The translations under genes and the position numbers were made by a program. Below the pieces are notes generated by a model. That model was not told the origin of the DNA. It made no database searches and saw only the letters and a program-made list of their open reading frames with translations. Positions 28,899 to 43,224 of a stretch of DNA of 64,000 bases are shown piece by piece. Each line of letters starts with the position of its first letter. Within the stretch, counting starts at the first letter, position 1. Source of the DNA: Escherichia coli (GTDB lineage: Bacteria; Pseudomonadota; Gammaproteobacteria; Enterobacterales; Enterobacteriaceae); assembly GCF_003991155.1 (NCBI RefSeq), contig NZ_CP031293.1; one strand, 5' to 3'.

Positions 28899-28950
28899 GA
28901 TAATTGCGTATATTCTGTAATTAAGATAATTGCATATCTTCTGCAATTAA
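28899..28950 (+). repeat. Two tandem imperfect 26-bp direct repeats (GATAATTGCGTATATTCTGTAATTAA / GATAATTGCATATCTTCTGCAATTAA)
   Basis: Read directly from sequence immediately 3-prime of the outer-membrane protein gene; 3 mismatches between copies. Confidence 0.6.
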
Positions 28951-28959
28951 ACAGAAATA

Positions 28960-28995
28960 CCCTGCAGTCTATTACTGCAGGGTTGTCTTTTATCT
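28960..28995 (+). terminator. Intrinsic terminator (CCCTGCAG / CTGCAGGG stem, T-rich tail)
   Basis: Inverted repeat followed by TTGTCTTTTATCTGTTTT. Confidence 0.6.
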
Positions 28996-29062
28996 GTTTT
29001 ACAGATAATTTCTGATTTTTATTATCCTGTTCTCTTCATAATAATGTTGTCGATATACTCCG

Positions 29063-30565
29063 ATGAATATCAGAAAACTGTTTTGTCCGGGCAACACCCC
29101 CCGGATTTTATTGTTTTTATTCTTTTTTGTTGTTTCTGCAATAACCACAATTGCATGCGGATACACTGAGAAGAATGCAACAGGAAATGTGCTGCTTCTG
29201 TTTCTCCTTCTGCTCCTTGCATACAGAAATACCCTCACATCCATTACAGCGCTGTTATTTCTGTTCTGTTGTGCACTGTATGCGCCTGCCGGTATGACGT
29301 ACGGTAAAATCAACAACAGTTTTATTGTCGCGTTGTTGCAGACCACAACTGATGAGGCAGCGGAGTTTACCGGGATGATTCCTGTTTATCATTTTCTGGT
29401 CAGTGCCGCGATTCTGGTATTCATGGTGATTTTCTGGCGAACACACCACCGCGGTCACCGTAACTGGCTGGCACTGCTGCTGTTCGTATTATGCTCAGTA
29501 AACAGCTGGCCGTTGCGGATGGTTAAAGGAACTGTTGTGGGGACAACTGACACATTGCGTGAAATGCAACATTATAAACAACTGAGTCAGCACGGGGCTG
29601 ACAACTGGAAAATCCTGCCGGGAACACCGTTATATGACACAATTGTTATTGTCACTGGTGAGAGTGTGCGCAGGGATTATATGTCGGTATATGGCTATCC
29701 CGTGCCAACCACGCCGTGGCTGAATACAGCTCCCGGTTTATTTATTGACGGCTATACATCGGCAGCAGCCAGTACCGTACCTTCCCTGAGCCGGACACTG
29801 ATTTATGACTATGAGCAGAACCCTGACTCCGGCAACAACATGGTGGCGCTGGCAGCAAAAGCAGGATACAGCACATGGTGGATATCCAATCAGGGAAAGC
29901 TGGGGGAGCATGATACACGCATCTCTGTTATTGCTTCTGATGCGGAGCATACCGTTTTCCTCAAGAAAGGCAGCTTTGCTTCCCGTAAAACGGATGACAT
30001 GTTGTTGTTACAGGAAACAGAACGTGCACTGGCGGATAAATCCTCTCCGAAGGTGATATTCCTGCACATGATGGGGTCTCATCCGAACCCGTGTGACCGG
30101 CTTCACTCCTGGCCGAATCATTACCTGGAGCAGTATCCCCGAAAGGTTGCCTGTTACCTCGCCAGCATCAGTAAACTGGATAACTTTCTCGGTCAGCTTG
30201 ATGGTATCCTTCGCCGGCATTCCCGTCATTTCGTCATGCTTTACTTTTCTGACCATGGGCTGTCGGTCAGCGACAGTGCTAATCCTGTTCATCATGATGG
30301 TCATGTGCAGGGAGGCTACAGCGTTCCCCTGATTATTACCGCCAGTGACATCACGTCTCATCAGTCCGTCAGCAGAAAAATCAGTGCCCGTCATTTCGCA
30401 GGTATTTTTCAGTGGCTGACCGGCATTCGTACTGAAAATATACCGCCATTCAATCTACTGACAGACGAAGATAATGAACCCATTATGGTTTTTAACGGAG
30501 AGAGGAATGTACCGGCAGACAGTCTGAAACCGCAGCCTCTGATTCTTCCGGTCAAGGGAAAATAA
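29063..30565 (+). CDS. Sulfatase-family phosphoethanolamine transferase (EptA/YhbX/OpgE-like), 500 aa
   Basis: N-terminal multi-TM region followed by a periplasmic alkaline-phosphatase-superfamily domain (..IVIVTGESVRRDYMSVYGY.., ..HMMGSHPNP.., ..YFSDHG..). Confidence 0.7.
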   Translation: MNIRKLFCPGNTPRILLFLFFFVVSAITTIACGYTEKNATGNVLLLFLLLLLAYRNTLTSITALLFLFCCALYAPAGMTYGKINNSFIVALLQTTTDEAAEFTGMIPVYHFLVSAAILVFMVIFWRTHHRGHRNWLALLLFVLCSVNSWPLRMVKGTVVGTTDTLREMQHYKQLSQHGADNWKILPGTPLYDTIVIVTGESVRRDYMSVYGYPVPTTPWLNTAPGLFIDGYTSAAASTVPSLSRTLIYDYEQNPDSGNNMVALAAKAGYSTWWISNQGKLGEHDTRISVIASDAEHTVFLKKGSFASRKTDDMLLLQETERALADKSSPKVIFLHMMGSHPNPCDRLHSWPNHYLEQYPRKVACYLASISKLDNFLGQLDGILRRHSRHFVMLYFSDHGLSVSDSANPVHHDGHVQGGYSVPLIITASDITSHQSVSRKISARHFAGIFQWLTGIRTENIPPFNLLTDEDNEPIMVFNGERNVPADSLKPQPLILPVKGK

Positions 30566-33686: not shown

Positions 33687-33762
33687 TGGTGCCCGGACTC
33701 GGAATCGAACCAAGGACACGGGGATTTTCAATCCCCTGCTCTACCGACTGAGCTATCCGGGC
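33687..33762 (-). tRNA. pheV: tRNA-Phe (GAA anticodon), 76 nt including CCA
   Basis: Reverse complement reads GCCCGGATAGCTCAGTCGGTAGAGCAGGGGATTGAAAATCCCCGTGTCCTTGGTTCGATTCCGAGTCCGGGCACCA; locus assigned as pheV from flanking yqgA/speC. Confidence 0.95.
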
Positions 33763-42504: not shown

Positions 42505-43224
42505 ATGATGCGCAAAATGCTGCTGGCGGCAGCACTTTCAGTGACGGCAATGACCGCTCACGCCGACTACCAGTGCAGCGTCACGCCGCGTGACGATGTG
42601 ATTGTCAGCCCGCAAACCGTGCAGGTGGAGGGCGAAAACGGCAATCTGGTGATCACGCCAGACGGCAACGTGATGTATAACGGTAAGCAATATTCCCTGA
42701 ATGCCGCCCAGCGCGAGCAGGCGAAGGATTATCAGGCTGAACTACGTAGCACCCTGCCGTGGATTGATGAAGGCGCGAAAAGCCGCGTCGAGAAAGCCCG
42801 TATTGCGCTGGATAAAATTATCGTTCAGGAGATGGGCGAAAGCAGCAAAATGCGCAGCCGTCTGACCAAACTTGATGCGCAGCTGAAAGAGCAGATGAAC
42901 CGCATTATCGAAACGCGCAGCGATGGCCTGACGTTTCACTATAAAGCCATTGATCAGGTTCGTGCCGAAGGCCAGCAATTAGTGAATCAGGCAATGGGCG
43001 GAATTTTACAGGACAGCATTAATGAAATGGGCGCGAAAGCGGTGCTGAAAAGCGGCGGTAACCCATTACAGAACGTGCTGGGAAGCCTGGGCGGTCTGCA
43101 ATCCTCAATCCAAACCGAGTGGAAAAAGCAGGAAAAAGATTTCCAGCAGTTTGGCAAAGATGTTTGTAGCCGCGTTGTGACTCTGGAAGATAGCCGCAAA
43201 GCCCTGGTCGGGAATTTAAAATAA
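42505..43224 (+). CDS. yggN: YggN (DUF2884) periplasmic protein
   Basis: 239-aa ORF with signal peptide; synteny. Confidence 0.88.
   Translation: MMRKMLLAAALSVTAMTAHADYQCSVTPRDDVIVSPQTVQVEGENGNLVITPDGNVMYNGKQYSLNAAQREQAKDYQAELRSTLPWIDEGAKSRVEKARIALDKIIVQEMGESSKMRSRLTKLDAQLKEQMNRIIETRSDGLTFHYKAIDQVRAEGQQLVNQAMGGILQDSINEMGAKAVLKSGGNPLQNVLGSLGGLQSSIQTEWKKQEKDFQQFGKDVCSRVVTLEDSRKALVGNLK

What the first reader, a model, noticed from the sequence alone, without database searches (positions are those of the whole stretch)
28899..28950. Tandem imperfect 26-bp direct repeats immediately 3-prime of the outer-membrane protein gene
Two head-to-tail copies with 3 substitutions sit between the stop codon and the terminator hairpin. 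They could be a remnant insertion-site duplication, a protein-binding element or a small-RNA pairing region; they are not part of any coding frame.
Basis: seen in the sequence. Interest (0 to 1): 0.3.

Follow-up and report, generated by a model that had tools for sequence, protein, structure and literature searches.

The report
Duplicated weak hairpin after adhesin gene
The two 26-base repeats are real, but they are an old, locus-specific duplication of a small weak hairpin in the tail of an E. coli adhesin gene (hek/hra/tia family) that changes about as fast as silent sites and is sometimes lost, so it is most likely an ordinary, nearly neutral feature.

Summary
Window 28899-28924 and 28925-28950 are two head-to-tail 26-bp units with 23 of 26 bases identical. 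They lie between the TGA stop (28879-28881) of a Hek/Hra/Tia-family outer-membrane adhesin gene and its terminator hairpin (28959-28983). This is the only tandem repeat in the 64-kb window.

I compared 140 homologous loci, which gave 56 distinct 3'UTR alleles:
- The element exists only in this E. coli intergenic region (about 1,060-1,150 of 5,426 genomes, 1-4 places each).
- The duplication predates the hek/tia split.
- One copy has been lost at least twice, by 26-bp and 22-bp deletions; 29% of sampled loci carry one unit.

Evidence for function is thin:
- Diversity in the repeat (about 0.13) equals that of third-codon positions (0.13-0.17). The terminator stem is at 0.07.
- The hairpins are weak (-2.4 to -6.4 kcal/mol).
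- Wobble pairs show no strand bias.
- Covariation rests on one stem position (G-C versus A-T).

Best reading: a slippage-born, nearly neutral duplication of a small 3'UTR hairpin. A functional RNA stem-loop or a DNA-binding palindrome cannot be excluded. Interest is low.

The parts
28126..28881 (+). Hek/Hra/Tia-family outer-membrane adhesin gene (251-codon ORF; RefSeq annotates a 246-aa product from an internal start). Its 3'UTR carries the repeat.
   Evidence: ORF. Annotated 'outer membrane protein' or 'invasion outer membrane protein Tia' at homologous loci. Homologs carry PF13505 OMP_b-brl. Hra-family literature: PMC5539235.
28882..28898 (+). 17-nt spacer between the stop codon and unit 1; variable among alleles.
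   Evidence: pi 0.152.
28899..28924 (+). Repeat unit 1: GA-TAATTGC-GTATATTCT-GTAATTA-A. A 7-bp stem with one G.T (G.U) pair at stem position 6 (8 bp with a second G.U) and a 9-nt loop. RNA dG is -3.7 kcal/mol on the + strand and 0.0 on the - strand.
   Evidence: This unit is degenerate in several allele classes and deleted in about 29% of sampled loci.
28925..28950 (+). Repeat unit 2: GA-TAATTGCA-TATCTTC-TGCAATTA-A. A perfect 8-bp palindrome with a 7-nt loop; RNA dG -6.4 kcal/mol. This is the better-kept, terminator-proximal unit, and the one that remains in strain F8.
   Evidence: (I5). Pair 55-67 is A-U in 16 alleles, G-C in 13 and unpaired only in the 8 tia alleles.
28951..28958 (+). Purine-rich spacer (ACAGAAAT) between unit 2 and the terminator. 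It can extend the terminator helix by pairing with TCT after the stem.
   Evidence: RNAalifold pairs 76-78 with 113-115; pair 77-114 is GC:22 GU:8 AU:4 AC:3.
28959..28993 (+). Intrinsic terminator of the adhesin gene: 10-bp stem ACCCTGCAGT/ACTGCAGGGT, 5-nt loop, T-rich tail.
   Evidence: The stem is conserved (pi 0.072) and the loop is free to vary (pi 0.385). 95% of cells are paired.
28998..29025 (+). Promoter-like site (TTTACA-16-TATTAT, 10 of 12 matches) upstream of the downstream phosphoethanolamine-transferase gene. This is context, not part of the repeat.
   Evidence: a consensus match only.
29063..30565 (+). Phosphoethanolamine-transferase (sulfatase-family) gene. The repeat is found only in alleles where this gene, or its remnant, follows the adhesin gene.
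   Evidence: CptA/EptA-type models, all below cut-off. RefSeq annotation. Linkage shown.

Best explanation
The finding is an old tandem duplication, most simply produced by replication slippage, of a 26-bp AT-rich quasi-palindrome. It lies in the 3' untranslated region of the hek/hra/tia adhesin gene, just upstream of that gene's intrinsic terminator.

Shown:
- Each unit is a 7-8 bp inverted repeat with an 8-10 nt loop.
- The two-unit state is ancestral to the diverged hek, hra and tia alleles.
- Copy number still drifts through short deletions between the repeats.
- The element occurs only at this one E. coli locus.
- Its sequence changes at about the same rate as third-codon positions.

Inferred:
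- The region is transcribed as the tail of the adhesin mRNA, where each unit can form only a weak AU-rich stem-loop.
- It has no strong sequence-specific role. At most it is a dispensable accessory to the 3'-end structure.
- The apparent compensatory G-C to A-T change in the stem is a single event. It could come from weak selection for pairing or from template-switch 'correction' of a quasi-palindrome.
For: 1. The element is real and specific to this locus. TRF result. It is the only array in the window. The 75-nt and 30-nt queries hit 1,154 and 1,063 of 5,426 E. coli genomes, at 1-4 places each, always unannotated intergenic DNA. There was one hit among 100,044 species-representative genomes and nothing real in plasmids or phages.

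2. The duplication is ancestral. Units 1 and 2 keep their own loop signatures (ATATTC versus ATCTTC) across hek, hra and tia alleles.

3. Loss is tolerated. Strain F8 has an exact 26-bp loss leaving unit 2. The common GATAATAATTAC... single-unit type differs from the two-unit allele U42 by a 22-bp deletion. 40 of 140 sampled loci carry one unit.

4. The evolutionary rate is near neutral. Diversity (pi) is 0.080 for unit 1 arms, 0.191 for the unit 1 loop, 0.157 for unit 2 arms and 0.124 for the unit 2 loop, a length-weighted mean of about 0.13. Third-codon positions give 0.166 (hek) and 0.127 (transferase). The terminator stem gives 0.072.

5. The structure is weak. Unit hairpins are -2.4 to -6.4 kcal/mol and several are 0.0. 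RNAalifold predicts only the terminator.

6. There is no strand signal. G.U-type wobbles number 5 on the + strand and 7 on the - strand.

7. Pairing is mostly inherited rather than covarying. 92.8% of cells are paired against 89.8% after shuffling. 'Pairs with a change on both sides' is 2 against 1.9 in shuffles.
Against: 1. Stem position 6 of unit 2 is A-U in 16 distinct alleles and G-C in 13, with no mismatched intermediate outside the tia alleles. No shuffle out of 500 reaches the observed percentage paired or covariation score. The tool itself warns that related sequences can give this result without any structure.

2. In the haplotypes tabulated, all but one rare tia variant (seen once) keep at least one unit with 6-7 Watson-Crick pairs: unit 2 in non-tia alleles, unit 1 in tia alleles.

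3. Within-unit pairing is supported over the cross-unit alternative, which suggests the local hairpin is what is kept.

4. Two units have persisted since before the hek/tia split even though direct repeats are prone to deletion.

5. The 3' half of the unit 2 loop (TTCTG) is invariant or nearly so across all 37 aligned alleles, including tia alleles whose stem is broken.
Confidence: 0.5

Rival explanations
1. Functional RNA stem-loops. The units fold in the hek mRNA 3'UTR and act in cis (mRNA stability or processing, RNase E entry, binding of ProQ or Hfq). Alternatively they form the body of a 3'UTR-derived small RNA that ends at the hek terminator, with the conserved UCUUCUG loop as a pairing surface.
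For: - The element lies between a stop codon and an intrinsic terminator on the coding strand.
- Within-unit hairpins are kept in 92-94% of cells, with a G-C to A-U double change and a G.U form in the window's unit 1.
- Most tabulated haplotypes keep at least one good hairpin.
- The loop motif TTCTG is invariant or nearly so, even where the stem has decayed.
- The window's 3'UTR folds better than every shuffle (z = -4.25), although much of that comes from the terminator.
Against: - There is no excess of + strand G.U over - strand G.U (5 versus 7).
- The hairpins are marginal, at -2.4 kcal/mol in the commonest single-unit allele.
- RNAalifold does not recover them.
- Diversity equals the third-codon benchmark.
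- There is no Rfam family; the only hits are terminator-driven and far below gathering scores.
- The one UTI89 small-RNA study I could read reports only PapR, which lies outside the pap island, and C271.
- The candidate pseudoknot between loop and downstream tract is paired in only 69.6% of cells.
Confidence: 0.25
2. DNA-level protein-binding palindromes. TAATTRC-N9-GYAATTA would be an operator for a dimeric regulator or a nucleation site for a nucleoid protein (H-NS, Lrp or IHF type) in this AT-rich island. It would affect the adhesin gene or the promoter of the downstream phosphoethanolamine-transferase gene, roughly 60-90 bp further on.
For: - A perfect 8-bp palindrome in unit 2.
- Symmetric behaviour on both strands, with no strand bias in mismatches.
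- A weak hairpin energy does not matter for a duplex-DNA site.
- A promoter-like site for the next gene lies at 28998-29025.
- The element is strictly linked to the presence of that downstream gene.
Against: - The half-site centres are 16 bp apart, about 1.5 helical turns, which puts them on opposite faces of the DNA. This is awkward for a simple dimer (general knowledge).
- A protein site would be expected to conserve its half-site sequence. Instead both arms switch together from G/C to A/T.
- The arms are no more conserved than silent sites.
- A full terminator sits between the units and the downstream promoter.
- No other copy of the palindrome exists in the window or elsewhere in E. coli genomes, so no regulon is visible.
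- No regulator was identified.
Confidence: 0.15
3. Remnant of an insertion or excision event. The two units would be a target-site or attachment-site duplication left behind by a mobile element.
For: - The locus lies in a tRNA-Phe-anchored island with an integrase 3.3 kb away.
- IS elements insert repeatedly within about 100 bp downstream.
Against: - The copies abut with nothing between them.
- 26 bp is far longer than typical IS target duplications (general knowledge).
- Each unit has its own internal palindrome.
- The duplication is shared by all diverged allele classes with orthologous units 1 and 2.
- None of the 140 loci has an element between the units.
Confidence: 0.03

Closest known systems
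Accessory stem-loops in bacterial 3'UTRs upstream of intrinsic terminators (including the bodies of 3'UTR-derived small RNAs such as CpxQ or SroC; named from general knowledge)
   Same: Location between stop codon and terminator on the coding strand. One or two small hairpins followed by a strong terminator. Total 3'UTR length of about 100-115 nt.
   Different: There is no evidence here of processing, an internal promoter, chaperone binding or a conserved single-stranded seed. The stems are much weaker. The sequence is not conserved above the silent-site level. No Rfam family matches.
REP/BIME and other small intergenic palindromic repeats of enterobacteria (general knowledge)
   Same: Short imperfect palindromes in 3' intergenic regions, sometimes in tandem, with variable copy number between strains.
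   Different: REP-type elements are G+C-rich, have stable stems and are dispersed in hundreds of copies per genome. This element is AT-rich and weak, and it is confined to one locus at 1-4 places per genome that match the number of hek/hra/tia paralogs.
Slippage-generated tandem duplications and quasi-palindrome template-switch mutation in E. coli (general knowledge)
   Same: Head-to-tail copies with no spacer. Exact-unit (26 bp) and near-unit (22 bp) deletions in other strains. Both arms of the inverted repeat changing in concert at one position.
   Different: These are mutational mechanisms, not functional families. The persistence of two units since before the hek/tia split is longer than might be expected for a freely deletable repeat.

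Membership tests
Dispersed palindromic repeat families (REP/BIME, ERIC, MITE-like) | Many copies dispersed around the genome | tested here: not met
   The unit alone (30-mer) and the 75-nt segment occur at 1-4 places per genome, median 1, only at this locus. There are no further copies in the window.
Dispersed palindromic repeat families (REP/BIME, ERIC, MITE-like) | Stable, G+C-rich stem (REP) or terminal inverted repeats flanked by target duplications (MITE) | tested here: not met
   The stem is 7 bp with 6 A-T pairs, at -2.4 to -6.4 kcal/mol. No terminal-repeat or target-duplication architecture is present.
3'UTR-derived small RNA or structured 3'UTR regulatory element | Lies on the coding strand between a stop codon and an intrinsic terminator | tested here: met
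3'UTR-derived small RNA or structured 3'UTR regulatory element | Structure supported by compensatory changes and by strand-specific G.U tolerance | tested here: inconclusive
   One covarying stem position (A-U 16 / G-C 13) gives 0 of 500 shuffles reaching the observed score, but 'pairs with a change on both sides' is 2 against 1.9 in shuffles. Wobbles number 5 on the + strand and 7 on the - strand. RNAalifold predicts only the terminator.
3'UTR-derived small RNA or structured 3'UTR regulatory element | Sequence conserved above the neutral level (seed or protein-binding motif) | tested here: not met
   Repeat pi is about 0.13, against 0.127-0.166 at third-codon positions. Only the short TTCTG loop motif is invariant or nearly so.
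3'UTR-derived small RNA or structured 3'UTR regulatory element | A discrete stable transcript, or chaperone binding | not testable with these tools
   No expression data are available. The UTI89 small-RNA study reports only PapR and C271 and does not mention this locus.
Known RNA families (Rfam 15) | A match at or above the family's gathering score | tested here: not met
   The best hits are rli40 at 29.3 bits (gathering score 100) and trpB motif at 27.7 bits (gathering score 59). Both sit over the terminator hairpin.
Operator for a dimeric transcription factor | Inverted half-sites, conserved in sequence, spaced about one helical turn apart | tested here: not met
   An inverted repeat is present, but the half-site centres are 16 bp apart, both arms switch together from G/C to A/T, and arm diversity is at about the silent-site level. 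Actual protein binding cannot be tested here.
Target-site or attachment-site duplication left by a mobile element | Direct repeats that flank, or once flanked, an inserted element; present only in the lineage where insertion occurred | tested here: not met
   The copies abut in all two-unit alleles, none of 140 loci has an insert between them, and the duplication is shared by all allele classes.

The most novel reading that the evidence does not exclude
The tandem AU-rich stem-loops plus the hek terminator form a roughly 100-nt 3'UTR-derived regulatory RNA, or a docking platform for a chaperone such as ProQ or Hfq, that is specific to pheV-type pathogenicity islands. The near-invariant UCUUCUG loop, or the spacer just before unit 1, would pair with target mRNAs; that spacer has a 16-nt perfect complement inside the core gene yggN in this window. 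Copy number (one or two hairpins) would tune adhesin expression or this cross-talk between island and core genome.
Probability: 0.08. Interest if true: 0.45.

Novelty: new member of a known kind. Interest (0 to 1): 0.15.

Why it matters
It matters little. If the near-neutral reading is right, the repeat is a tidy example of how a slippage duplication of a small palindrome can persist and drift in copy number for a long time in a virulence-gene 3'UTR. It could also serve as a cheap typing marker for hek/hra/tia alleles (one unit versus two, G-C versus A-T stem). If the minority reading is right, it would add a pathogenicity-island-encoded 3'UTR element that controls a widespread ExPEC, EAEC and ETEC adhesin, which would be of moderate interest to specialists in RNA regulation of virulence.

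Tried and rejected
1. RNA strand-specific signal. My first impression was that two of the three substitutions between the window's units keep pairing as G.U on the + strand. This did not survive the wider sample: across 28 distinct units the wobbles are 5 on the + strand and 7 on the - strand.

2. Long cross-unit hairpin. The minimum-free-energy fold of the window sequence pairs unit 1's left arm with unit 2's right arm. I rejected it because 14 of 25 cells are unpaired at the covarying position and no measure exceeds the shuffles.

3. Pseudoknot or alternative helix between the pyrimidine-rich loop (TCTTC) and the purine tract before the terminator. It is paired in 69.6% of cells and the register differs between alleles.

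4. Dispersed repeat family. Rejected.

5. PapR small RNA of UTI89. It is stated to lie outside the pap island. My attempt to test complementarity to papI failed because the coordinates I transferred from L002 do not apply to this window, and I did not pursue it.

6. Known RNA families. Only terminator-driven hits below threshold.

7. Conservation in more distant homologs. Paralogs with 65% protein identity or less, in E. coli and Salmonella and in other genomic contexts, have unrelated 3' flanks. They therefore gave no deeper covariation test.

8. Matches by eye to Fur, PmrA, PhoP, IHF, H-NS and AggR/Rns consensus sites (from memory). All were partial, for example about 10 of 19 for a Fur box and 7 of 10 for the H-NS motif. 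I make no claim from them.

9. Literature search for the repeat sequence itself: no papers.

Full report
**1. The observation**

The sequence at 28899-28950 reads GATAATTGCGTATATTCTGTAATTAA | GATAATTGCATATCTTCTGCAATTAA. Tandem Repeats Finder reports period 26, 2.0 copies, 88% matches, no indels and score 83. It is the only array scoring 50 or more in the whole 64-kb window. A degenerate 26-mer with up to 3 mismatches finds only these two sites, against 0.00 expected from shuffles.

The repeat starts 17 nt after the TGA stop of the ORF 28126..28881. It ends 8 nt before a terminator-like hairpin (28959-28983; 10 pairs, 6 of them G-C, with a T-rich tail). No ORF of 40 codons or more overlaps it. 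A 25-codon TTG-start ORF on the - strand would be frameshifted by the copy-number variants described below.

**2.

Each unit is itself an inverted repeat. Unit 2 is a perfect TAATTGCA-N7-TGCAATTA (I5). Unit 1 is TAATTGCG-N7-TGTAATTA, which pairs only with two G.T (G.U) pairs. The object is therefore a tandem pair of small AT-rich hairpins or palindromes.

**3. Context**

The upstream gene belongs to the Hra family of outer-membrane adhesins and invasins (Hra1, Hra2, Hek, Tia, Hes). RefSeq annotates homologous loci as 'outer membrane protein' or 'invasion outer membrane protein Tia'. The family is described in PMC5539235.

The downstream gene (29063..30565) is a sulfatase-family phosphoethanolamine transferase (and RefSeq annotation). 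A pap fimbrial operon lies upstream at a 100%-identical locus (L002). An integrase-sized ORF starts 3,343 bp after the stop codon, followed by tRNA-Phe at 33687-33762. This matches the published layout of pheV islands, where the integrase is 3,342 bp from the hes stop codon.

**4. Distribution**

- A 75-nt query covering the spacer and both units hits 1,154 of 5,426 complete E. coli genomes.
- A 30-mer covering one unit hits 1,063 genomes.
- Both queries hit 1-4 places per genome (median 1), always in unannotated intergenic DNA and never on plasmids.
- A 23-specified-base pattern anchored on the end of the coding sequence found more than 120 metagenomic contigs. It found one contig among 100,044 species-representative genomes, a MAG labelled Bacteroidetes that I take to be mis-binned.
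- Plasmid and phage collections gave only chromosome-sized records or small fragments filed as plasmids, plus AT-rich Enterococcus matches at E-values of 0.01-0.2.
- More distant paralogs (65% protein identity or less, in other genomic contexts, including one from Salmonella) have unrelated 3' flanks. Only alleles followed by the transferase gene carry the element.

The element is therefore a single-locus, E. coli-specific feature and not a dispersed repeat.

**5. Allelic series**

The 140 loci gave 56 distinct 3'UTRs and 26 repeat-region haplotypes.

- Units 1 and 2 keep their own loop signatures (ATATTC versus ATCTTC) across hek, hra and tia alleles. The duplication therefore predates the divergence of those alleles. 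The proteins are about 62% identical, and the 3' end of the coding sequence is about 84% identical at the DNA level.
- One unit has been lost at least twice. Strain F8 and one metagenomic contig have an exact 26-bp deletion that leaves unit 2 in an otherwise near-identical allele. The common GATAATAATTAC... type differs from the two-unit allele U42 by a 22-bp deletion.
- 40 of the 140 sampled loci (29%) carry one unit. The sample is not unbiased.

**6. Is the hairpin kept?**

Within-unit pairing holds in 92.8% of cells. Unit 2 is an intact 7-bp stem in almost all non-tia alleles, while unit 1 is often degenerate. In tia alleles the situation is reversed.

At stem position 6 of unit 2, 16 distinct alleles have A-U, 13 have G-C, and only the 8 tia alleles are unpaired. 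The cross-unit helix favoured by single-sequence folding is contradicted, with 14 of 25 cells unpaired. A candidate pseudoknot is paired in only 69.6% of cells.

**7. Why I do not read this as strong evidence for function**

(a) All the covariation comes from one stem position. The alleles carrying each state form coherent groups, so it may reflect a single event. 'Pairs with a change on both sides' is 2, against 1.9 in shuffles. The tool warns that related sequences can beat every shuffle on the other measures without any structure.

(b) Shuffling the partner letters still leaves 89.8% of cells paired. Most of the pairing is therefore inherited conservation of an ancestral palindrome.

(c) I measured diversity on one matched set of 78 distinct alleles:

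| Segment | Diversity (pi) |
|---|---|
| Unit 1 arms | 0.080 |
| Unit 1 loop | 0.191 |
| Unit 2 arms | 0.157 |
| Unit 2 loop | 0.124 |
| Third-codon positions, hek | 0.166 |
| Third-codon positions, transferase | 0.127 |
| Terminator stem | 0.072 |
| Terminator loop | 0.385 |

The length-weighted mean for the repeat is about 0.13, the same as the third-codon benchmarks. The true terminator shows the expected contrast between a constrained stem and a free loop. The repeat does not.

(d) The stems are weak, at -2.4 to -6.4 kcal/mol, and several units are at 0.0. RNAalifold recovers only the terminator.

(e) G.U-type wobbles show no strand preference: 5 on the + strand and 7 on the - strand. This removes my initial impression of an RNA-specific signal.

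(f) One unit is dispensable in nature (section 5).

**8. What remains in favour of some constraint**

- The compensated position has no retained intermediates in unit 2.
- All but one rare haplotype tabulated keep at least one good hairpin.
- Two units have persisted for a long time.
- The TTCTG motif in the unit 2 loop is invariant or nearly so, even in tia alleles whose stem has decayed.

These points keep the functional-RNA and DNA-site rivals alive but do not favour either. For a DNA operator, the 16-bp spacing between half-site centres and the concerted change of both arms are awkward. For an RNA element, the weak energies and the lack of strand bias are awkward.

**9. Verdict**

This is a real, previously undescribed feature; no paper in the searchable library contains the sequence. 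It is nonetheless ordinary: an ancient, locus-specific, copy-number-polymorphic tandem duplication of a weak AT-rich hairpin in the 3'UTR of the hek/hra/tia adhesin gene, evolving at about the neutral rate.

| Reading | Confidence |
|---|---|
| Slippage-born, nearly neutral duplication (best explanation) | 0.5 |
| Functional 3'UTR stem-loops or small RNA | 0.25 |
| DNA-binding palindromes | 0.15 |
| Insertion remnant | 0.03 |

Interest: 0.15.

Noticed in passing
window 28890-28905 (+) versus 42816-42831 (+): The spacer plus the start of unit 1 (CTCCTGAACGATAATT) is perfectly complementary over 16 nt to the mRNA of the core gene at 42505..43224 (PRK10626, which I take to be yggN from its position between trmB and ansB). 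My estimate of the chance expectation is about 0.004 for this window. However, the 16-mer is not conserved in tia or single-unit alleles, so it is probably a coincidence.
   Followed up: partly
L015 (about 1490-1527), L016 (about 1375-1388), metagenomic allele U12 (L043/L094/L126): IS elements (IS3 family in L015 and L016) are inserted inside or just after the hek terminator in several strains. They replace the downstream transferase gene but leave the repeat intact. The stretch of about 100 bp after the repeat looks like a recurrent insertion site.
   Followed up: no
L002 20964-23903; L005, L006, L011, L017: The phosphoethanolamine-transferase gene downstream of hek is often inactivated: split by IS4 in L002, frameshifted in L005 and L011, truncated in L006 and L017. 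It is an intact 500-codon ORF in the window.
   Followed up: no
L011, L012, L014, L017: The adhesin gene itself is truncated at its 5' end next to IS1, IS3 or IS21 elements, or replaced by a short hypothetical ORF, in some strains. The 3'UTR repeat and terminator remain in place.
   Followed up: no
metagenomic allele U52 (L115) and L147: Some alleles are mosaics. U52 combines a hra-type repeat region with a tia-type terminator and downstream region. L147 combines a hek-type spacer with a single unit and an F-type terminator. Recombination breakpoints therefore fall within this 3'UTR, which limits tree-based counting of events.
   Followed up: partly
window 28951-28958 with 28986-28990 (alignment A1 columns 76-78 / 113-115): RNAalifold extends the terminator helix by three pairs across an internal loop. 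One of them covaries (GC:22, GU:8, AU:4, AC:3).
   Followed up: no
tia alleles, e.g. L013 about 940-960 (AAGATATTTATATATCTT): In tia alleles the unit 2 stem has decayed, but a different palindrome (GATAT-TTAT-ATATC) spans the same stretch and is what folds there (sixth sequence).
   Followed up: no
window 28126 versus RefSeq start (L002 20042, equivalent to window 28141): The longest ORF gives a 251-aa product, but RefSeq annotates a 246-aa product that starts 15 nt downstream. The true start codon of this hek allele is unresolved.
   Followed up: no
window 28993-29019: A 27-nt stretch after the terminator is 70% identical to the unit 1 / unit 2 junction (repeat finder family D2), and a third GATAAT lies 79 bp after the second. 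This could be a decayed third unit or chance similarity in AT-rich DNA.
   Followed up: no
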